Below, piece after piece: positions 66 through 15,587 of a stretch of DNA of 24,000 nucleotides. A program made the position numbers and the translations under genes. Source of the stretch: Kordia sp. (GTDB taxonomy: Bacteria > Bacteroidota > Bacteroidia > Flavobacteriales > Flavobacteriaceae); NCBI RefSeq assembly GCF_022447245.1, contig NZ_JAKVBC010000021.1:42737-66736 (forward strand), given 5' to 3'. The notes below the pieces were generated by a model. It worked only from the letters and a program-made list of their open reading frames with translations, did not search any database and was not told the origin of the DNA. Numbering within the stretch: the first letter of the stretch is position 1; each line of letters starts with the position of its first letter.

Positions 66-779
66 TTATTCAGATTCTAACACATTTTTTTGTGGAACAT
101 GTTCATCTACTATATGACGAATCATATTGCACCAGGCTTTTGAATTGTCTAAAATCCAGGCATCCGAACTGATAGCAATGTGCCCGCTTTCGGCAATGTA
201 TTTATCTGGATTGTTTTCTAAGATAATTTCCCAATGGTAGTTGTGTTCTTCTGTGAATTCTCGTAACATGGTTTTTAGTCGTCCACTATTGGAAACAGGT
301 TTGTCAAAGATCCAAGTGGCTTTTTTGACTTTGTTTTCTTGAAGAAAGTTTGCAATGAGTTGAATAGCTTCTGGTGTTTGTTTTACTTTTTTATAGGTTC
401 CGTGTACGCTTGATAAATCGCGGTAACAACCATCTAAACCTTTGAATAGATATGCGCCAGATAATGCACTTTCTAACATAATTAATACATTAAAACCATC
501 TAGATAGACTTCCTTTTCTGTCAATTGATTTGGTAATAGGCAAGTTGCAGCTCGTTTTTCAAGTTTGTGAGCAGCTTCACTCATTCCTTGTACAGCACGT
601 TGTTGACGATTGTTAAGTTTGTAACGATTTCCTACCAATGCCACAGACGATTTTTCAGAGAATCCTCTACTCAATAAATACGATATATCTTTGATAGCTT
701 CTCGCATTTTTGATTGCATGTTTGGATCGCCAAATAAACGATCGTCGCTTCCTTCTTTTCCTCTGCTTCTTGTTGCCAT
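66..779 (-). CDS. DUF434-type protein with C-terminal PIN/NYN-like (DUF5616-like) module; predicted RNA-binding or ribonuclease, function unknown
   Basis: 237-aa ORF. The N-terminal block REAIKDISYLLSRGFSEKSSVALVGNRYKLNNRQ fits my recollection of the DUF434 signature. The C-terminal half (YLDGFNVLIMLESAL..DGCYRD) resembles the nuclease-like module that usually follows it. Its stop lies 10 nt before the exonuclease-fragment ATG, so the two are probably co-transcribed. Confidence 0.55.
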   Translation of the reverse strand: MATRSRGKEGSDDRLFGDPNMQSKMREAIKDISYLLSRGFSEKSSVALVGNRYKLNNRQQRAVQGMSEAAHKLEKRAATCLLPNQLTEKEVYLDGFNVLIMLESALSGAYLFKGLDGCYRDLSSVHGTYKKVKQTPEAIQLIANFLQENKVKKATWIFDKPVSNSGRLKTMLREFTEEHNYHWEIILENNPDKYIAESGHIAISSDAWILDNSKAWCNMIRHIVDEHVPQKNVLESE

Positions 780-4518: not shown

Positions 4519-4537
4519 TACGCATTTATTTTGCGTA
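4519..4537. promoter_or_regulatory. operator copy A: TACGCAT-TTATT-TTGCGTA
   Basis: 19-bp inverted repeat 40 nt upstream of the ligase start, in the divergent gap to the rhodanese gene. The 18-nt left flank (4501..4518) matches the flank of copy B at 14 of 18 positions. Confidence 0.6.
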
Positions 4538-5365: not shown

Positions 5366-7219
5366 TTATTTTGATTGTTTAAAAGGTTTTAAGAAACTAT
5401 CTTTTTCTAGGTTTTCCAACGAAAAATCAAAGTCAGCTTGTTCCTTATTCGTAACAATTTCTGCACCTAACATTTGTACAATTTTGTTAAATGATAATGG
5501 TTTGCTCCATTGTTGGTACAATGCTTTTGTGGCTAAATTTGAGATTTCTGAGTTTCCAGAAACTCTTGCATTACCAGCACCAAAGTTTAATAATACAAAG
5601 CATTGTTTATCTTCCTCTGGAATCATCATTCCTAAAATGGTTTGCCATTGTACCGAAGCACATTTCACTTCTGCAAACAAATTATTTGGATTCATCATAT
5701 AGTTGTAATTGATGGAATCTCCTTTACCAATAATGATTTTATAATTGCAAGTTGCACTTCCAGAAAATACATTGTTGTTAATTAATGTAGGCATTTTTAA
5801 ACCTTGATTTGCGTATAAATATTCTGCCGCACCATTTGGCGCATCGGTCATATCACCTGAATACATTAAGTTTCCTTTTTGTTGGTTGTAGGTTGCGTTC
5901 CAACCAATTTTACCACCAATATTTAAACCAGATAGGTCTAAATCATGTGCACCCCATGCATTTTCCCAATATATACCAACGGCTAATTTTTTACCGTAAA
6001 AACGCGTACCAGTTGGAATGTTACCAACATACATTTTTTCAGAAGTTGGCAATGCATATGTTACATCTTCTGGTAAGAAAATTTTCTTGTCAGATAAATC
6101 AAAACGTTGCTTTATATATCTTAATATAAACGCATAGTTTTTTTCATAAATTTCTCCTTCATGCGTATACAATTTCTGCTTTGCTTTTTGCAACGTTGCA
6201 TTGTTTCCTAAGCAAGTAACAGTAATGGTATTTGATTTTACCCACGATTTACCATTACGAATTCTGTATAAAAAGGCATCTTGACCATTCATTCTACTGT
6301 AGCAAGCCGATAAAGCTTTGAATAAGGCAAATGGTGTTGCATTGTCTAACCAACGATTATCATTTGCGGTTAGTAACATATTTGTTACATTGTTCAATGA
6401 GTTTGAAACAAATGGTTTGTGATACTTTTTTGAAAGCTTACTAATCTTGTTAATTGTTTTTGGAGCTTTCGTTTTATATGCTAGGAACAATGGTTTGAAA
6501 CGATTGAAGATTTCAGCCAATTTTTCCAAACCAAATTTGTTAAATGCTTGTGTTGGATTATACGAACTGTTTTTAATCAATTCGATTAATTCATCATTTT
6601 TAATTAACAAAGTTGTGTCCGTACTTCTGTAGATGATGTATCTGAAAAACTCTACAGCATCTTTTGGATAAATGTTATAATACTCTGCTAACTTTATAAT
6701 AGCTTCTTTGTTTTTGATGTTTTCGTTACCAGTAAACTTGTATTTTAATTCATCTGCCAAGATTGAGATCAGGTCATCAATAGTTTCAAAAGTCAATGCT
6801 ATACCAGATTGTAACAAAGACAAGGATTTTTCTTGCATTTCTGCAACTGTATATGCTTTAATGACTTTGTATGATAATTTGATATTAGGAATGTTTAATA
6901 TTTCAGACGGAATGTAAATTTCGCTTTGGAAATTACTTCCATATGTAGAAATATAATGCATTATTTGTTCTGTTAATAATTTGCTACGAGAGCTATTCTT
7001 AATAGTACTCCATGACTTATGGAAGGTTTTGTTTAGATCATTACCGTTTAACTTCTCTTTCTTGTAATACTGGATGATTCTTTTCTTAGCCCAGAGCGCT
7101 TTTTCCTCAATAATATATCCTTCATCTGTAATGAATGGTTTGTTTTCTGAGCTTTTTCCAAAAATACTTAACGTTTTTTCTTTGGCGATAACAGCGTTAA
7201 ATAATTTTAATGTTTTCAT
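5366..7219 (-). CDS. 617-aa protein: long mainly helical N-terminal region of unknown family plus TerD-like C-terminal domain
   Basis: The long ORF is certainly coding. The C-terminal segment AHDLDLSGLNIGGKIGWNATYNQQKGNLMYSGDMTDAPNGAAEYLY parallels the TerD pattern (DLDxSxxxL..GKV..FYN..HSGDNxTGEG). I could not assign the N-terminal ~400 aa by eye. Confidence 0.5.
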   Translation of the reverse strand: MKTLKLFNAVIAKEKTLSIFGKSSENKPFITDEGYIIEEKALWAKKRIIQYYKKEKLNGNDLNKTFHKSWSTIKNSSRSKLLTEQIMHYISTYGSNFQSEIYIPSEILNIPNIKLSYKVIKAYTVAEMQEKSLSLLQSGIALTFETIDDLISILADELKYKFTGNENIKNKEAIIKLAEYYNIYPKDAVEFFRYIIYRSTDTTLLIKNDELIELIKNSSYNPTQAFNKFGLEKLAEIFNRFKPLFLAYKTKAPKTINKISKLSKKYHKPFVSNSLNNVTNMLLTANDNRWLDNATPFALFKALSACYSRMNGQDAFLYRIRNGKSWVKSNTITVTCLGNNATLQKAKQKLYTHEGEIYEKNYAFILRYIKQRFDLSDKKIFLPEDVTYALPTSEKMYVGNIPTGTRFYGKKLAVGIYWENAWGAHDLDLSGLNIGGKIGWNATYNQQKGNLMYSGDMTDAPNGAAEYLYANQGLKMPTLINNNVFSGSATCNYKIIIGKGDSINYNYMMNPNNLFAEVKCASVQWQTILGMMIPEEDKQCFVLLNFGAGNARVSGNSEISNLATKALYQQWSKPLSFNKIVQMLGAEIVTNKEQADFDFSLENLEKDSFLKPFKQSK

Positions 7220-7301
7220 TTTCTTTATTGTGATTTAAAATAATAAGTGAGGTGTATGCTTTCTTTGAATGAATGTGTAATAGGAACACCTTTTACCTAT
7301 T

Positions 7302-7337
7302 TAAAAAGACGAAGAGTACTATATCCACTATACTCTT
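7302..7337 (-). terminator. intrinsic-terminator-like hairpin inside the leader of the 617-aa gene
   Basis: Minus strand reads AAGAGUA-uaguggauauag-UACUCUU followed by cgUCUUUUU. The stem is 7 bp, and the hairpin lies ~85 nt upstream of the start codon at 7219. Confidence 0.45.
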
Positions 7338-7361
7338 TCGAGCACTGGAGTCGAACCAGTT

Positions 7362-7444
7362 TATAGGAACTCTTTGTGTCATTTTTTGAAAACTAACGGA
7401 AAGTAGGATCTTGGAAAAATAATAGGAACTTTCTGTGTCAGTTT
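7362..7444. repeat. two 24-nt direct repeats, 20/24 identical
   Basis: 7362..7385 is tataggaactctttgtgtcatttt and 7421..7444 is aataggaactttctgtgtcagttt. A third ATAGGAAC core lies at 7280..7287. Confidence 0.7.
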
Positions 7445-7529
7445 GTCTTTATATTTTATTTCTAAATGTGTTTAGATCGTATGTCGTATGTACTTTATTA
7501 CTAACGACAGTACAAATGTTTTATAGAGA

Positions 7530-7548
7530 TACGCAATTATTTTGCGTA
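7530..7548. promoter_or_regulatory. operator copy B: TACGCAA-TTATT-TTGCGTA (perfect palindrome)
   Basis: 19-bp perfect inverted repeat upstream of the leader and the 617-aa gene. Its flank ACAAATGTTTTATAGAGA is shared with copy A. Confidence 0.6.
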
Positions 7549-7590
7549 GTTTTAGAGAAGAAATTTTTTTCAAATGTAGTATGTTGATAT

Positions 7591-7898
7591 TCAGTATGTT
7601 TTGGGGAAGAAATATGTAAAAAAAGCGAGCCGAAGTTCGCTAAAAGTTAATCCTGAATTTAACAAAACATGTGGAAATACTGAATTACAATTTAAGTGAC
7701 AAGATCCTTCGCGACTTGCGCAAATATTTGTTAAACAACGATCAGTTATCCCAACAGGACACTGATTATTACAAGATGTTGCTGTAACACAACCAATAAC
7801 TTCTGAAATATTGATTGCTCCACCACTTAAATTCAATTTGCTTAAAGATTATATTGATTTTTGTTGAGACTCAAGTTTTTAAGATTTCTTTTCTTCAT
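7591..7898 (-). pseudogene. frameshifted paralog of the GG-leader Cys-rich peptide
   Basis: Leader MKKRNLKNLSLNKNQYNL (7898..7845) stops at TAA 7844..7842. The rest of the leader and the core (SLSKLNLSGG-AINISEVIGCVTATSCNNQCPVGITDRCLTNICASREGSCHLNC..) lie in the -1 frame from 7848. The two frames overlap stop-free only at 7845..7848. The core frame also reads through its own terminator hairpin. Confidence 0.6.
7617..7641 (-). terminator. intrinsic terminator (UUCG-loop hairpin + U7)
   Basis: Minus strand reads AGCGAAC-UUCG-GCUCGCU (one A.C mismatch) followed by UUUUUUU. It is near-identical to the terminator at 8003..8034. Confidence 0.6.
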
Positions 7899-8843: not shown

Positions 8844-9500
8844 TTAAATATTTGCAATTTTAGTGAAGAACTGCGCAATCTTTTTACGTAGTGAAGTTTT
8901 TTCTTGAATTATTGGTTTTTGTACTATTTCTTTAACTAGAATCTTTTCTGGTTCACCAAAGACAATTACTTTTTTAGAAGAATATGAAGTGCATGCTTCT
9001 AGTTTTGTTAGAATATTAAGTGCAAGATTTCGAATTTCAGGGTTTATTATTGCTGTGTCTTCTAAAAAAGGATTTTGAAACATAACATTCAAATCATAAT
9101 AATAATCACGAAATTTATAAGATATGTTGTACGTTTCATCTGGATTAAAGTCAAACTCTTTAATCATTTTGCCAAGAATTGAATATAGAGTATTTACATT
9201 TTTAGTTTGTAAAATTTTGATACATGATTGCTCTAAGATGAAGACTTTTATAAAGTCATCACCATATTGAATACGAGATTCCTGTTCAAGTTCTGATAAA
9301 CAGCTTTCTGATCGATAATTGATGGTAAGTATTGTGTAGAAAAATGAATTTTTTTCTAGGTTGTTTAAGATGTTTTCACAACCATAGAGAAATTCTTCAA
9401 ATCCAGAAATGGATTGTTTGCCAACTAAGGTATTATATATCTCTAATTGTAAAGTTTCCATGTTATAATGGTTAAAAAACGAGCAAAAACAATTAGCCAT
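8844..9500 (-). CDS. hypothetical protein, no recognisable motif
   Basis: Long ORF directly downstream of the exonuclease gene. The first ATG is at 9500, with an alternative at 9461 (METLQLEIYN); the ORF-track start 9512 is a TTG. Operator copy D lies inside its last codons. Confidence 0.5.
   Translation of the reverse strand: MANCFCSFFNHYNMETLQLEIYNTLVGKQSISGFEEFLYGCENILNNLEKNSFFYTILTINYRSESCLSELEQESRIQYGDDFIKVFILEQSCIKILQTKNVNTLYSILGKMIKEFDFNPDETYNISYKFRDYYYDLNVMFQNPFLEDTAIINPEIRNLALNILTKLEACTSYSSKKVIVFGEPEKILVKEIVQKPIIQEKTSLRKKIAQFFTKIANI
8872..8890. promoter_or_regulatory. operator copy D: TGCGCAA-TCTTT-TTACGTA
   Basis: Same TRCGYAA-N5-TTRCGYA architecture and same TCTTT spacer as copy C. 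It lies ~200 nt upstream of the S24 peptidase start and overlaps the 3' end of ORF 8844..9500. Confidence 0.45.
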
Positions 9501-10167: not shown

Positions 10168-10186
10168 TACGCAATCTTTTTACGCA
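10168..10186. promoter_or_regulatory. operator copy C: TACGCAA-TCTTT-TTACGCA
   Basis: Lies in the divergent gap between the exonuclease gene (start 10073) and the WYL regulator gene (start 10280). This position is typical of an autoregulated divergent promoter. Confidence 0.55.
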
Positions 10187-10223: not shown

Positions 10224-10279
10224 ATGTAGATATGTTGAGTCTTATTTCGAAATGGATGATTTTAACTTATACTATACGC

Positions 10280-11293
10280 ATGGCAATTAATAAAAACGCA
10301 CTGATTCGATATAAAACGATAGACAAATGTTTGCAAAATCATTATCGTCAATGGACCTTAAATGATTTGATTGAAGCTTGCTCAGACGCTTTACACGAAT
10401 ATGAAGGTCGTGAAGTAAATGTAAGTAAACGAACCGTTCAACTCGATATTCAAATGATGCGTAGTGATAAATTGGGTTACAACGCGCCCATTGTGGTATA
10501 CGATCGTAAGTATTATAAATATGAAGATGAAGAGTATTCCATCACAGATATTCCATTGACAGAAAACGATATGAATGTATTGTCTGAAACTGTAGAAATG
10601 TTGAAGCAATTCAAAGATTTCTCGTTATTCTCAGAATTAGGTGGCATTATACAGCGTTTGGAAGATAAGGTATATACGGAAAAAACACATCAAGCTGCGA
10701 TTATTCATTTAGATAAAAATGAAAATTTAAAAGGATTGCAACACTTGGATTTGTTGTATCAGGCGATTTTAAAAAAAATTGTGTTACGATTAACGTATCG
10801 TTCGTTTAAGGCACGTGCCGCCTCCGAAATTATTTTCCATCCATTCATTCTAAAAGAATACAACAATCGTTGGTTTTTGATTGGAGTCATAGGCAATAAG
10901 CAACAGATTACCACTTTTGCTTTAGACCGAATTATCAATGTCGATTACGATTTAGATATTCCATACAGAAATGAAGCGTTTAATGGAGATGAGTATTATA
11001 AAAATACCATTGGAGTTACGGTTTTAGATCAAAAACACATTCAACGTATTGTGCTTAAAATAGACAAAAGCAACGCGCCGTATGTAACTACGAAGCCTTT
11101 TCATACTACGCAGGAAATTATTTCGGTACACGAAGATGGAAGTATTACAGTGCTATTACAAGTACATATTAATTTTGAATTGGAACGTTTGATTCTTGGT
11201 TTTGGTGATTCTATTGAAGTGATTGAGCCGACATTGTTACGCAAACGCATTCGAAAAAAGTTAGAAGCGGCAGTCAGTAAGTATACAGAGTAA
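10280..11293 (+). CDS. WYL-domain transcriptional regulator (HTH + WYL + C-terminal extension)
   Basis: N-terminal wHTH-like NKNALIRYKTIDKCLQNHYRQWTLNDLIEACS...VSKRTVQLDIQMMRS, then a central WYL-type block FHPFILKEYNNRWFLIGV. The preferred start is MAINKNAL at 10280; the ORF-track start is 10232. Confidence 0.8.
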   Translation: MAINKNALIRYKTIDKCLQNHYRQWTLNDLIEACSDALHEYEGREVNVSKRTVQLDIQMMRSDKLGYNAPIVVYDRKYYKYEDEEYSITDIPLTENDMNVLSETVEMLKQFKDFSLFSELGGIIQRLEDKVYTEKTHQAAIIHLDKNENLKGLQHLDLLYQAILKKIVLRLTYRSFKARAASEIIFHPFILKEYNNRWFLIGVIGNKQQITTFALDRIINVDYDLDIPYRNEAFNGDEYYKNTIGVTVLDQKHIQRIVLKIDKSNAPYVTTKPFHTTQEIISVHEDGSITVLLQVHINFELERLILGFGDSIEVIEPTLLRKRIRKKLEAAVSKYTE

Positions 11294-13595: not shown

Positions 13596-15587
13596 TTATT
13601 TTTCAATGAGTAACATCATGATGTGTGCAGCGCTCCAACTAAAGTTTTTGGCATTTAATCCTTTGCCTGTAAGCGGATGGTAATTTTCTCTGATAGGAAA
13701 ACCTTTTTCCAAAAGACCTTCACAACCTGCCAAAATCTGTAAACTAGCTTTGTCTGCTTCTGCTGTGAAACCATAATTGAGCAATCCTTTGACGCCAAAA
13801 TACGCTTGATCTAACCAATTTGGTCCACGCCAGTATCCTTTGAGAGGATTGAATTTTGGATGATCAGCACTCATGGTTTGAAACGGAACTTTTGTAAAAA
13901 ACTTGGCAGAATTCATCATGTTATTTTTAACACCGTCAGCTTGTACTTGCGTTGCAACTTTTGCCCATAATGGAGTCCAACCTTCAGAACCTTCACCTTT
14001 TATAAAAGTAGTTCCTTCAAGGTTTGTATCGTAAAACCACTGATCTGTAGCATCGTAAAATTGTTGTTGAATACGTTTTTTTAAAGCTTCTGCTTCTGTG
14101 GAAAACTTCTCAGCATCTTTATGATTTTCAATGGCATTTGCTAGCTCGGCTAAGAATAGTTTTTCAGCATATAAATATGCGTTTAAGTCTACAGATTCTT
14201 AATCGAGCGAATACGCACCTTCTACATTTTCTAAAATTTTGGAGTTGTCAAAACGAATGGCATTGTCCATTCCGCTTTCCCATTTGGCGGCAATCAAAGA
14301 ACCGTCAGTAGAACCATATTCACACAAGTCATCTTGGTCATGATCACGTTTTGCATACCACCAATAATGATACTTTTTAAGTTTTGGATACATATACTTT
14401 ACAAAGTCAATATCCTTGTCTTTTTCATACACTTTAGAAACTGCCCAAGCAGATAATGGCGGTTTGGTGTCTCTATAATTATGAGCTTCAATCGTAGTAT
14501 CGCGATAAACGCAATCGGCTACAAAACCATCAGGTTCTTGAAAAACAAACATCAACTTGATTTGCTCTTTTGCCAATTCTACATCAAAATAGGAAAGTCC
14601 CACCGCATGTTTCCATGAATCCCAAGACCAAAAACCATTAAACCATTTGTAATGATAACTTGGAAATAAACCTTCGTGCTTAATTTCTCCAGCAGGAATA
14701 CGCCAATTATTTTGTAAAGTCAAGATAGTTTTGGCAAGTAACGATGTGTATTTTTCTTCTGAAAATAGTTCCTTTTTTAACGTTTGAAGCTTGGTAAGTT
14801 GTTTATTTTTTTCAGATAGACGTTGTTTTACGATACTGTCAAAATTCACAGTTTGAATCAATGCTTGTTCATCCTCCCAAGAGTATTCTGGAAAGATAAA
14901 CGTTTGTGCGCAGATAAAACTTTTTTGCTCATTTGGCTGTAAATCTATGTCTTTAAAATAAGTTGTATATGTTGTACTGTCAATAGTTACAGAAGAAACA
15001 TCATTTAAAAATTGAATATATCCTTTAGCAGTTGTTTTATTAGAATTGACTTCAATACGGTTTCCTTTTTTAGAAAAGTGAATTCCATTATCAAACAGCT
15101 TTCCACTTAGTTGAGGTGTTATTGTTTGATCAGTATCAGACGTATTTGTGATGTTGTTTTTAATTAAAACAGTATGACCTGATAGATATACGAGTTGTTG
15201 TGATAAAGTAATTCCTTCGGACTTAAAGTTTTGTTCTAAATGACTAAGGTAACTTACAGAATTTGCAGGTTCCCACGAGTGATCTTTTAGGGTAAAATTT
15301 GCCAAAGATGTTCCTGCCCAAACACCGTTTTGTTCAGTCATTAAAAAAGGTCCAGAAAAACCTGAAACTGAAATTGTATCTGAGAGCGAATAAGCAAACC
15401 ATGCACCTTGATCAGAGAACATTAATCCAGATTTGTCAAATGCATGATCTGGAGTAATTGAAAAGTCTAGAATATTAGCACTGGCTTTATAATAACTGTG
15501 GTTATTAATGGTTTTAACAGGAGTTGGATTTGACTCACAACTTGCCAATATCACTATGAAGCATATAAAAACAACCTTTCTTAACAT
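13596..15587 (-). pseudogene. (alpha/alpha)6-barrel glycoside hydrolase, GH63/GH37 (YgjK/trehalase-like), interrupted by one in-frame TAA
   Basis: ORFs 14199..15587 and 13596..13919 are in the same frame. The sequence between them translates cleanly (..YSLD*ESVDLNAYLYAEKLFLAELANAIENHKDAEKF..WTPLWAKVATQ..). The only defect is TAA at 14201..14199. Also present are a lipoprotein signal MLRKVVFICFIVILASC and the motifs FWSWDSWKH and SWSAAHIMMLL. Confidence 0.75.

What the first reader, a model, noticed from the sequence alone, without database searches (positions are those of the whole stretch)
7280..7548. Structured leader or sRNA with a canonical tRNA T-arm mimic, direct repeats and its own terminator
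The 370-nt gap has no credible ORF. On the minus strand, downstream of operator B, there are two 24-nt direct repeats (20/24 identical, 59 nt apart). A perfect T-arm follows (ACUGG-UUCGACU-CCAGU, 7360..7344). Next comes a 7-bp hairpin with a D-loop-like UAGUGGAUA loop, then a U-tract (7337..7302), ~85 nt before the start codon. There are three readings. (1) It is a Y-RNA/YrlA-like tRNA-mimicking ncRNA partnering the adjacent protein; bacterial Y RNAs are known to carry tRNA-like domains and to be encoded beside repair genes. (2) It is a terminator/antiterminator leader sensing a tRNA-binding factor. (3) It is a relic of a tRNA gene 3' end (T-arm + 7 nt + terminator) left as an old integration scar. 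Upstream sequence does not fold into acceptor, D or anticodon arms, so it is not a tRNA gene.
Basis: partly seen in the sequence, partly recalled or inferred. Interest (0 to 1): 0.7.

Follow-up and report, generated by a model that had tools for sequence, protein, structure and literature searches.

The report
New tRNA-mimicking RNA module array
The gap upstream of the 617-aa gene holds three tandem copies of an uncatalogued structured RNA module, one of which displays a miniature tRNA "elbow"; the same module always travels with this unannotated protein family in bacterial RNA-repair gene clusters and inside phage tRNA gene arrays.

Summary

Each module has the same parts:
- an outer helix;
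- an A-N-A / C internal loop;
- a 5-bp purine-rich inner helix closed by an invariant G-C pair;
- a loop that opens with invariant UUCCUAU and ends in UA.

M2's loop holds the T-arm, then a GNRA-capped 4-bp stem, then a GG strand. This T-arm, capped "acceptor" stem, D-like order is the one seen in YrlA Y RNAs.

A covariance model finds only these three copies in the window. It finds 235 copies directly upstream of orthologues of the 617-aa gene in 80 Flavobacteriia/Bacteroidota loci. It finds 175 more flanking 30-70 % identical homologues on viral contigs, including the cyanophage S-CRM01 tRNA array.

Covariation is strong. The "terminator" hairpin is not conserved. There is no Rfam, Pfam, PHROGs or PADLOC entry.

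Best reading: these are the cognate RNAs of a new helical + TerD-like protein in a WYL-regulated RNA-repair regulon. They are analogous to Ro60/Y RNA but not homologous to it.

The parts
7530..7548 (.). It is the presumed start of the transcription unit.
   Evidence: Exact palindrome. There are 4 copies in the window (4519-4537, 7530-7548, 8872-8890, 10168-10186). The same palindrome lies upstream of the RNA array or of rtcB in 38 related loci. A WYL/WCX regulator is encoded divergently in 61 of 80 loci. Its function as an operator is inferred.
7391..7443 (-). Module M1. Outer helix ACUGAC 7442-7437 / GUUAGU 7397-7392. Internal loop ACA 7436-7434 opposite bulged C 7398. Inner helix GAAAG 7433-7429 / CUUUC 7403-7399. 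Loop UUCCUAU 7428-7422 ... UA 7405-7404, with a 15-nt unstructured insert.
   Evidence: R1 covariance model, 55.8 bits, E 3e-11. Alignment A3 covariation.
7304..7384 (-). Module M2 (tRNA-elbow module). Outer helix AAUGAC 7383-7378 / GUCUUU 7310-7305. Internal loop ACA 7377-7375 opposite bulged C 7311. Inner helix AAGAG 7374-7370 / CUCUU 7316-7312. Loop UUCCUAU 7369-7363 ... UA 7318-7317.
   Evidence: R1, 47.4 bits, E 3e-9. Alignment A4 of 19 orthologous copies: 96.7 % of cells paired and 10 of 20 pairs with compensatory changes. RNAalifold independently recovers the outer, inner and T stems.
7344..7360 (-). T-arm mimic inside M2: stem ACUGG/CCAGU, loop UUCGACU.
   Evidence: 3 of 5 stem pairs covary (AU/GC/UA; CG/AU/UA; UA/CG). 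GG..CC and the loop UUCGAnU are invariant in 19 copies. The pattern is expected 0.03 times in the window.
7332..7343 (-). 4-bp stem capped by a GNRA tetraloop (GCUC-GAAA-GAGU), directly 3' of the T-arm. It occupies the place of the tRNA acceptor stem.
   Evidence: 98.4 % paired. UA<->CG compensatory change (GCUC/GAGY <-> ACCC/GGGU). Loops are GAAA, GCAA or GUAA. In cyanophage S-CRM01 the equivalent stems are 5 bp and 9 bp, the latter UUCG-capped.
7319..7331 (-). D-loop-like single strand AUAGUGGAUAUAG with a nearly invariant GG.
   Evidence: GG is conserved in 17-18 of 19 copies. A role as G18/G19 mimic pairing with the T-loop is inferred from tRNA/YrlA architecture.
7242..7301 (-). Module M3. 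Outer helix AUAGGU 7300-7295 / ACUUAU 7248-7243. Internal loop AAA 7294-7292 opposite bulged C 7249. Inner helix AGGUG 7291-7287 / CACCU 7254-7250. Loop UUCCUAU 7286-7280 ... UA 7256-7255. It ends 23 nt before the ATG.
   Evidence: R1, 56 bits, E 3e-11. RNAalifold on the 86 nt upstream of the ATG in 29 loci, chosen by position only, predicts exactly this fold. In most of the 80 loci the last module ends 10-20 nt before the ATG.
5366..7219 (-). Partner gene 'P617' (617 aa): a basic all-alpha N-domain (residues 1-372, pI 9.6) and a TerD-like beta-sandwich C-domain (about residues 375-550, pI 5.5).
   Evidence: No Pfam, NCBIfam, PHROGs or PADLOC family and no PDB sequence match. 1359 clusters at 50 % identity. 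AF2 pLDDT 88.7. Foldseek match to TerD 2kxt, E 3.7e-5. Full-length uncharacterised phage relatives. The start codon is conserved. pI values.

Best explanation
The 7242-7443 stretch (minus strand) is the 5' leader of the 617-aa gene (P617). It encodes three tandem copies of a conserved, previously uncatalogued structured RNA module.

Each module folds on its own into a stem-loop. Its constant 'base' is an outer helix, an A-N-A / C internal loop, a 5-bp inner helix closed by G-C and U-A, and the flanking UCCUAU...U. This base is the recognition site. The loop carries a variable 'display' insert. In M2 the insert is a miniature tRNA elbow: T-arm, GNRA-capped acceptor-like stem and a GG strand.

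Shown here: the fold, its covariation, and its strict linkage to the P617 family from Flavobacteriia to cyanophages.

Inferred:
1. The basic helical domain of P617 binds the constant base, giving small RNPs analogous to Ro60-Y RNA/YrlA particles of RNA-repair operons.
2. The modules are cut out of the transcript. In relatives this would follow from RNase P/Z processing of the flanking tRNAs or tRNA-like genes.
3. M3, which ends about 23 nt before the AUG, also lets P617 repress its own translation.
4. The unit is switched on with the Rnl1-PNKP repair genes by release of the WYL-domain regulator from the shared palindromic operator.
5. The tRNA-like inserts recruit, or act as decoys for, tRNA-recognising enzymes during tRNA damage and repair.
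For: Structure.
- Seed alignment A3 (110 modules): 96.4 % of cells paired, 9 of 11 pairs with compensatory changes, covariation score 0.73 against 0.31 for shuffles and at most 0.19 for slid controls.
- Independent set A5 (150 modules from viral contigs, none in the seed): 94.3 % paired and 11 of 11 pairs compensatory. The unpaired A8, A10, UUCCUA, UA and bulged C are 95-100 % conserved.
- The M2 helices are supported in A4. M3 is recovered by RNAalifold from sequences chosen by position only.

Specificity.
- In the window, the 3 modules score 47-56 bits and the next best hit 13 bits.
- In 1.05 Mb around 80 orthologues there are 235 hits. All are on the gene strand and within about 410 nt upstream of the start.
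- In 0.58 Mb around 80 viral-contig homologues (30-70 % identical) there are 175 hits. All are on the gene strand and nearly all lie within about 800 nt upstream of, or shortly downstream of, the gene (three lie about 1.5 kb upstream).
- Modules also occur beside the homologues in S-CRM01, S-CBWM1 and Phass-1.

Reverse test.
- A DNA pattern for the module gave 62 viral matches. Of these, 38 had perfect inner pairing, and 23 of the 38 lay next to a P617 homologue.
- A control pattern shifted by one N gave 29 matches, none with perfect pairing.

The base works regardless of connectivity.
- 52 tRNA-like genes (RF00005, 49-57 bits) carry a circularly permuted copy in place of the anticodon loop.

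Stand-alone RNAs.
- Modules without an adjacent P617 sit in tRNA-sized slots of phage tRNA arrays, 4-10 nt from neighbouring tRNAs.
- Some lie downstream of the gene.

tRNA mimicry.
- S-CRM01 has a module holding a complete permuted tRNA-like domain. It draws a sub-threshold Rfam YrlA hit of 35.9 bits.
- Anticodon-stem-loop-like hairpins occur in 32 of 238 inserts against 3.9 +/- 2.0 in shuffles.

Context.
- The window encodes Rnl1, PNKP, an R2K ATP-grasp protein, an RNase T-like exonuclease and a WYL regulator.
- Other genera encode RtcB, RlaP and AAA_13.
- The operator occurs 4 times in the window.
- The P617 N-domain has pI 9.6.
Against: - No experiment or transcript data: expression, RNA ends and protein binding are all inferred from co-occurrence.
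- P617 has no recognised RNA-binding domain, and its N-domain fold has no characterised relative.
- The window lacks the flanking tRNAs or tRNA-like gene that would explain how the modules are excised.
- Constant placement next to the start codon would also fit a purely cis-regulatory role.
- Some modules (about 8 of 38) have no P617 homologue within the stored flank, so another partner cannot be excluded.
- M2's D-arm is reduced to a single strand, so elbow formation is unproven.
- A5 was aligned to the model, which biases pair counts towards the structure.
Confidence: 0.62

Rival explanations
1. Purely cis-acting operator. The modules are binding sites in the mRNA leader through which P617 (or another factor) controls P617 translation, like the thrS operator that mimics the tRNA-Thr anticodon arm. 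They have no role as free RNAs.
For: - The last module ends 10-20 nt before the ATG in most of the 80 loci, and equally close in phage homologues.
- All Flavobacteriia copies are in the leader.
- The M3 sequence is almost invariant.
Against: - Modules also lie downstream of the gene, and kilobases away inside phage tRNA arrays in tRNA-sized slots.
- There are 1-8 copies per locus with diverse tRNA-like inserts.
- Permuted copies sit inside tRNA-like genes with intact acceptor stems, which RNase P/Z should release.
Confidence: 0.2
2. Processing or stability punctuation of tRNA-array transcripts. The module would be a recognition or folding element for a host or phage RNase or chaperone, and P617 is merely a frequent neighbour.
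For: - Modules sit between tRNAs with 4-10-nt spacers.
- About 8 well-formed modules have no P617 homologue within the stored flank.
Against: - In Kordia, Chryseobacterium and many other genomes there is no tRNA array, yet the modules persist exactly upstream of P617.
- Linkage survives down to 30 % protein identity.
- 14 invariant unpaired or closing nucleotides argue for a specific partner.
Confidence: 0.1
3. Terminator/antiterminator leader that senses a tRNA-binding factor.
For: - In Kordia a 7-bp hairpin followed by UUUUU can be drawn at 7337-7304.
- 76 % of cells can pair in orthologues.
Against: - The hairpin shows 0 compensatory changes and no more pairing than shuffles. Where the inner helix covaries (9 sequences), the alternative partner does not follow.
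- The U-run is absent in other genera.
- The terminator scan does not call it.
- No T-box or other riboswitch hit.
Confidence: 0.03
4. Self-cleaving or otherwise catalytic small RNA repeated in tandem.
For: - About 14 invariant nucleotides are clustered at a junction.
- Copies are tandem and next to tRNAs and RNA ligases.
Against: - No match to any Rfam ribozyme family.
- The core does not resemble the hammerhead, twister, pistol or hatchet consensus (from my own knowledge).
- No evidence of cleavage.
Confidence: 0.03
5. Relic of a tRNA gene 3' end left by an integration event.
For: A perfect T-arm with no complete tRNA around it.
Against: - The T-arm is followed by a capped 4-bp stem, not a 7-nt acceptor strand.
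- It covaries, and it is kept inside the same module at the same position in at least 15 genomes of several genera and in cyanophage S-CRM01.
- The window has no tRNA, no integrase and no duplicated att sequence.
Confidence: 0.01

Closest known systems
Ro60 (Rsr) - Y RNA / YrlA ribonucleoproteins of bacterial RNA-repair operons (rsr-yrlBA-rtcBA; Rfam RF02553; PMC4201824, PMC7790460)
   Same: - ncRNAs encoded next to, and co-transcribed with, their partner protein in an RNA-repair cluster with RtcB or another ligase.
- Several RNAs per locus.
- A stem formed by the 5' and 3' ends carries the conserved site, and the loop carries a tRNA-like domain in the order T-arm, capped acceptor-like stem, D-arm.
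- Also found in phages.
- S-CRM01 and L217 copies draw sub-threshold YrlA hits.
   Different: - The partner is a helical + TerD-like protein with no TROVE/vWA domain.
- The conserved site is A-N-A/C plus G-UUCCUAU...UA-C, not GNCGAAN0-1G.
- Most copies have no tRNA-like insert at all.
- Copies form tandem arrays that abut the start codon.
- The window copy gives no RF02553 hit.
Long tRNA gene arrays co-regulated with rtcB under translational stress (Anabaena trn operon / TrcR regulon; PMC8421152, PMC10272220) and phage tRNA arrays
   Same: - A repressor-controlled regulon linking tRNA arrays, an RNA ligase and ATP-grasp (RimK/R2K-type) enzymes.
- The arrays are horizontally mobile, and decoy or 'sponge' roles have been proposed for array RNAs.
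- Many relatives of this locus carry 14-30 tRNA genes, with modules interspersed among them.
   Different: - Those studies describe neither a non-tRNA module nor the P617 family.
- The regulator here is WYL/WCX, not the RHH protein TrcR.
- The window itself has no tRNA genes.
Autoregulatory mRNA leaders that mimic the protein's RNA substrate (E. coli thrS operator, ribosomal-protein leaders); from my own knowledge
   Same: A structured element that resembles part of a tRNA lies immediately upstream of the start codon of a gene for a presumed RNA-binding protein.
   Different: - The natural substrate of P617 is unknown.
- The modules also occur away from the gene and in multiple copies.
SPFH/Band-7-associated 'novel tRNA-like molecule' predicted by Burroughs & Aravind 2016 (NAR 44:8525). 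Recalled from the abstract only; the paper was not held, so I could not check it.
   Same: A predicted scaffold protein plus a cognate tRNA-like ncRNA within RNA-repair systems.
   Different: - P617 has no Band-7/SPFH domain (Pfam scans).
- Whether that tRNA-like RNA resembles the tRNA-like genes seen here could not be tested.

Membership tests
YrlA / bacterial Y RNA (RF02553) | Encoded beside a Ro60/Rsr (TROVE-domain) gene | tested here: not met
   P617 and 37 diverse relatives have no TROVE hit at E <= 0.1. No TROVE protein was found among the 20 window ORFs scanned. The fold is all-alpha plus TerD-like.
YrlA / bacterial Y RNA (RF02553) | Ro60-binding stem with GNCGAAN0-1G on the 5' strand (PMC4201824) | tested here: not met
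   The 5' strands read (outer helix)-A-N-A-RRRNG-UUCCUAU in all 260 aligned copies. The only CGAAAG in M2 is the GNRA hairpin inside the insert.
YrlA / bacterial Y RNA (RF02553) | tRNA-like domain in the order T-arm, capped acceptor-like stem, D-arm, enclosed by the terminal stem | tested here: met
   In M2 the T-arm and capped stem are supported by covariation, while the D-arm is reduced to a GG strand. The full version, with D-arm GCUC-AGUUGGUA-GAGC, is in S-CRM01 at L083 6612-6735.
YrlA / bacterial Y RNA (RF02553) | Reaches the Rfam gathering score (69 bits) | tested here: not met
   No hit in window 7150-7700 at E <= 10. Related phage modules score 28-36 bits.
tRNA gene (RF00005 / ARAGORN) | Cloverleaf with acceptor, D, anticodon and T arms | tested here: not met
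   0 tRNAs in the window by ARAGORN and Rfam. Relatives in other genera do carry tRNA-like genes scoring 49-57 bits with a 37-49-nt insert in the anticodon loop.
Intrinsic terminator / attenuator leader | Conserved G+C-rich hairpin followed by a U-tract | tested here: not met
   Not called by the terminator scan. The hairpin shows 0 compensatory changes and pairing equal to shuffles. The U-tract is absent in orthologues.
tRNA-gene integration scar (att site) | Duplicated tRNA 3' segment with an intact tRNA and an integrase nearby | tested here: not met
   No tRNA and no integrase among the scanned ORFs. The element is conserved in place across genera and in phages.
Other curated RNA families (T-box RF00230, Pedo-repair RF01715, ribozymes, all of Rfam 15) | Match to the family covariance model | tested here: not met
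   No relevant hit at the gathering score in the window, at E <= 10 in the region, or in related loci.
Module family defined here (UUCCUAU-loop module) | Outer helix, A-N-A / C internal loop, 5-bp inner helix closed by G-C, loop opening UUCCUAU and ending UA, on the strand of and adjacent to a P617-family gene or inside a tRNA array | tested here: met
   All three window copies score 47-56 bits with model R1. Pairing, invariant nucleotides and linkage are confirmed in independent loci.

The most novel reading that the evidence does not exclude
P617 and its modules form a previously unrecognised class of ribonucleoprotein. It is encoded in phage tRNA arrays and in bacterial RNA-repair islands. 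A constant protein-binding junction displays interchangeable pieces of tRNA: the elbow, an anticodon stem-loop (most often a Lys-UUU-like CUUUUAA loop), or a whole tRNA body. The particles would act as decoys or sensors for tRNA-targeting nucleases, or as platforms that bring repair enzymes (RtcB, or Rnl1-PNKP, and RlaP) to damaged tRNAs.
Probability: 0.3. Interest if true: 0.9.

Novelty: new variant of a known kind. Interest (0 to 1): 0.8.

Why it matters
This would add a second, unrelated protein-RNA pair to the only well-studied example of a scaffold protein plus tRNA-mimicking ncRNA in RNA repair, Ro60/Y RNA.

It gives a first functional handle on a large protein family (about 1,360 clusters at 50 % identity) that is absent from Pfam, NCBIfam, PHROGs and PADLOC.

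It identifies non-tRNA genes hidden in phage and bacterial tRNA arrays. Some of these are currently annotated as hypothetical CDSs or pseudo-tRNAs.

Two open questions become directly testable: what tRNA arrays and RNA-repair islands do during tRNA-targeted conflict, and why tRNA mimicry recurs there. The RNA motif is small, strongly covarying and abundant, so it could be added to Rfam at once.

Tried and rejected
- ARAGORN and Rfam (gathering and E <= 10) on the window found no tRNA, YrlA, T-box, Pedo-repair or ribozyme.
- An exact-sequence look-up of P617 found nothing on record.
- AF2 with a shallow 12-sequence alignment gave a poor model (pLDDT 54.8). It was replaced by a 38-sequence alignment (pLDDT 88.7).
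- A second word-indexed protein search with the profile returned only close relatives.
- The terminator hairpin was tested and rejected.
- The integration-scar and pseudo-tRNA readings were rejected on conservation.
- The tRNA-like genes were considered as intron-containing tRNAs (BHB-like splicing by RtcB). No anticodon loop remains after removing the insert, and the same motif occurs without exons, so this was not pursued.
- K-turn and hammerhead cores were considered and do not fit the conserved nucleotides (by inspection).
- The first viral DNA pattern had one N too many. It was kept as a negative control.
- Literature searches found no description of the motif or the protein. Burroughs & Aravind 2016 and the 2020 Ro60 review were not held.
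Full report
**1. What is in the sequence**

I read the region on the minus strand.
- The core GTTCCTAT occurs three times, all in this gap, against 0.52 expected.
- The T-arm ACUGG-UUCGACU-CCAGU (7360-7344) is exact. GGTTCRANTCC is expected 0.03 times per window.
- ARAGORN and Rfam find no tRNA or any other family.
- The leader as a whole folds much better than shuffles (z = -4.65).

**2. The repeats are halves of a module**

The 617-aa protein (P617) is 65-83 % identical across Kordia, Aquimarina, Winogradskyella, Tenacibaculum and Chryseobacterium. So the window comes from a Kordia-like flavobacterium.

I fetched 80 orthologous loci. Printing their upstream regions showed that each "repeat" has a complementary partner downstream. 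The unit reads:

5'-[outer helix]-A-N-A-[5-bp inner helix RRRNG]-UUCCUAU-(variable insert)-UA-[inner helix 3' strand]-C-[outer helix 3' strand].

The window holds three such modules: M1 (7443-7391), M2 (7384-7304) and M3 (7301-7242).

Covariation in the seed alignment:
- A MAFFT alignment of 110 modules (A3) gives 96.4 % paired cells.
- 9 of 11 pairs carry compensatory changes.
- The covariation score is 0.73, against 0.31 in shuffles and at most 0.19 when partners are slid.
- These modules were collected with a pairing-aware rule, so I checked the result in other ways (next three blocks).

Check by position-only selection:
- RNAalifold on the 86 nt upstream of the ATG in 29 loci, chosen by position only, predicts exactly the M3 fold.

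Check by model search:
- A covariance model (R1) finds only the three modules in the window (47-56 bits; next best 13 bits).
- In 1.05 Mb around the orthologues it finds 235 hits. All are on the gene strand and within about 410 nt upstream of the start.

Check on loci never used for the seed:
- Around 80 homologues of 30-70 % identity on IMG/VR viral contigs, R1 finds 175 hits. All are on the gene strand, and nearly all lie within about 800 nt upstream of the gene or shortly downstream of it; three lie about 1.5 kb upstream.
- In that set 94.3 % of cells pair and all 11 pairs show compensatory changes.
- The unpaired A8, A10, UUCCUA, UA and bulged C are 95-100 % conserved.

**3. M2 and the T-arm**

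In 19 orthologous copies (A4) four helices hold, with 96.7 % of cells paired and 10 of 20 pairs compensatory. RNAalifold recovers the outer, inner and T stems without guidance.

The parts of the insert, in order:
- The T-stem covaries at three of five pairs, while GG/CC and the loop UUCGAnU stay invariant.
- Directly after it comes a 4-bp stem capped by GAAA, GCAA or GUAA, with GCUC/GAGY changing to ACCC/GGGU.
- Then comes a strand with a nearly invariant GG.

This T-arm, capped acceptor-like stem, D-like order is the topology described for YrlA (PMC4201824).

It shows no compensatory change and pairs no better than shuffles. Its U-run is absent in other genera. It is therefore a Kordia coincidence, not a terminator.

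**4. Relatives extend the picture**

*tRNA-like genes.* Many Flavobacteriia carry, upstream of the modules, a tRNA-like gene that ARAGORN misses. Rfam scores it as tRNA at 49-57 bits with a 37-49-nt insert in the anticodon loop. The insert is a circularly permuted module, UUA-CUUUU-C-GC(loop)GGC-ANA-AAAAG-UUCCUNU, in 52 elements. The conserved junction therefore works regardless of how the strands are connected. That is the behaviour expected of a protein-binding or tertiary motif.

*Named phages.* P617 homologues occur in T4-like cyanophages S-CRM01 and S-CBWM1 and in gut phage Phass-1.
- In S-CRM01 the gene (g174) sits in the middle of the tRNA array, with five modules just upstream and one just after the stop codon.
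- One S-CRM01 module holds a complete permuted tRNA-like domain: T-arm, 9-bp UUCG-capped acceptor stem and D-arm. Another is an elbow module like M2. The complete one draws a sub-threshold Rfam YrlA hit of 35.9 bits against a gathering score of 69.
- S-CBWM1 and Phass-1 also carry modules.

*Reverse test.* A DNA pattern search for the module in viral contigs gave 62 matches. Of these, 38 had perfect inner pairing, and 23 of the 38 lay beside a P617 homologue. A control pattern shifted by one N gave 29 matches, none of them paired.

*Modules without an adjacent P617.* These lie inside large phage tRNA arrays, on the tRNA strand, in tRNA-sized slots 4-10 nt from their neighbours. Processing of the flanking tRNAs would release them as small RNAs.

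*Insert content.* Across 238 distinct inserts, hairpins with a 7-nt Y-U-NNN-R-N loop are 8-fold enriched over shuffles (32 observed against 3.9 +/- 2.0 expected). CUUUUAA, which resembles the Lys-UUU anticodon loop, is the commonest.

**5. The partner and the neighbourhood**

*P617.*
- It has no Pfam, NCBIfam, PHROGs or PADLOC family and no PDB sequence match.
- The family nevertheless has about 1,360 clusters at 50 % identity.
- AF2 with 38 sequences gives pLDDT 88.7: an all-alpha N-domain (pI 9.6) and a beta-sandwich C-domain (pI 5.5).
- The C-domain matches TerD (2kxt, E 3.7e-5).
- Full-length structural relatives are uncharacterised phage proteins.

*Window neighbours.* The window also encodes a T4 Rnl1-type RNA ligase, PNKP, an R2K ATP-grasp protein, DUF434/DUF5616, an RNase T-like exonuclease and a WYL/WCX regulator.

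*Other genera.* The cluster reads WYL | RtcB | tRNA-like gene + modules | P617 | RlaP | R2K ATP-grasp | AAA_13.

*Regulation.*
- The palindrome occurs four times in the window, in front of the Rnl1-PNKP operon, the module array, a small-gene operon and the RNase T/WYL divergent pair.
- It also occurs upstream of rtcB or the array in 38 loci.
- The WYL gene is present in 61 of 80 loci.

This is an RNA-repair / translational-stress regulon. It parallels rsr-yrlBA-rtcBA in Salmonella (PMC7790460) and the TrcR-controlled tRNA-array/rtcB regulon of Anabaena (PMC8421152, PMC10272220).

**6. Mechanism**

Shown: a conserved, covarying RNA module, strictly linked to one protein family and often carrying tRNA-like inserts.

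Inferred:
- P617 binds the constant junction.
- The modules become small RNPs that present tRNA parts to tRNA-recognising enzymes or nucleases.
- M3, next to the AUG, gives feedback control of P617 translation.
- The unit is induced together with the repair enzymes.

A cis-only role, a processing-signal role and a catalytic role remain as rivals. The terminator and scar readings are rejected.

**7. Novelty**

The concept of a scaffold protein plus a cognate tRNA-mimicking ncRNA in RNA repair is known. This RNA motif and this protein family are not in Rfam 15, Pfam, or the literature I could search. I could not read Burroughs & Aravind 2016. From memory of its abstract, it predicts a different tRNA-like RNA, one associated with SPFH/Band-7 proteins.

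Noticed in passing
window 4519-4537, 7530-7548, 8872-8890, 10168-10186: Four copies of the palindrome TACGCAAnnnnnTTGCGYA lie in front of the Rnl1-PNKP operon, the module array/P617, a small-gene operon, and the RNase T / WYL divergent promoter. They probably mark the regulon of the WYL/WCX regulator at 10232-11293.
   Followed up: partly
L004 5675-5787, L031 5674-5792, L015 5692-5800, L057 2968-3066 and about 50 other loci: tRNA-like genes (RF00005, 49-57 bits; missed by ARAGORN) whose anticodon loop is replaced by a circularly permuted copy of the module. They lie between rtcB or the operator and the P617 gene. The window lacks one.
   Followed up: partly
L203, L204, L217, L222, L243, L211 (IMG/VR contigs); L252 444-502 (S-CBWM1): Modules occupy tRNA-sized slots inside phage tRNA arrays of 10-30 genes. 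Some enclose a complete tRNA-like sequence.
   Followed up: partly
L253 5986-6453 (Phage Phass-1, OQ749652): Five tandem modules overlap an annotated 'hypothetical protein' CDS (5995-6294), which is probably a mis-annotation.
   Followed up: no
window 7300-7296 vs 7284-7280 (and 7367-7363, 7426-7422): The invariant 5' strand of M3's outer helix (AUAGG) is the exact complement of the invariant loop CCUAU. The conserved G.U pair in the outer helix fits a dual-pairing or switch role. Not tested.
   Followed up: no
238 distinct module inserts from alignments A3 and A5: Anticodon-stem-loop-like hairpins (at least 4 bp, 7-nt loop YUNNNRN) occur in 32 inserts against 3.9 +/- 2.0 in shuffles. The commonest loops are CUUUUAA (Lys-UUU-like), then CUUGAAA, UUUGGAU, UUCGAGU (a T-loop), CUGUUAA and CUGUCAC.
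   Followed up: partly
L007 7881-7957 (-): A Flavo-1 RNA (RF01705, 50.5 bits, above the gathering score) lies immediately downstream of the P617 gene on the opposite strand.
   Followed up: no
window 7591-7836 (-) and 7641-7624 (-): The only terminator-like site in the region lies inside the 81-aa ORF, so the 3' end of that ORF (or the ORF itself) is doubtful.
   Followed up: no
window 13596-13919 and 14199-15587 (-): A GH63 / MGH1-like glycoside hydrolase is split into two ORFs that cover different parts of the Pfam model. It is probably a disrupted gene.
   Followed up: no
L015 10471-12723; window 66-779 and L008 10313-11020: Other recurrent cluster members are an AAA_13 ATPase (750 aa) in Chryseobacterium and a DUF434+DUF5616 protein in Kordia and Winogradskyella. 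Their roles in the repair cluster are unknown.
   Followed up: no
window 7549-7564 and 7598-7613: A 16-nt direct repeat (GTTTTAGAGAAGAAAT / GTTTTGGGGAAGAAAT, 49 nt apart) lies beside the operator, one copy abutting it and the other 49 nt further out. Its meaning is unknown.
   Followed up: no
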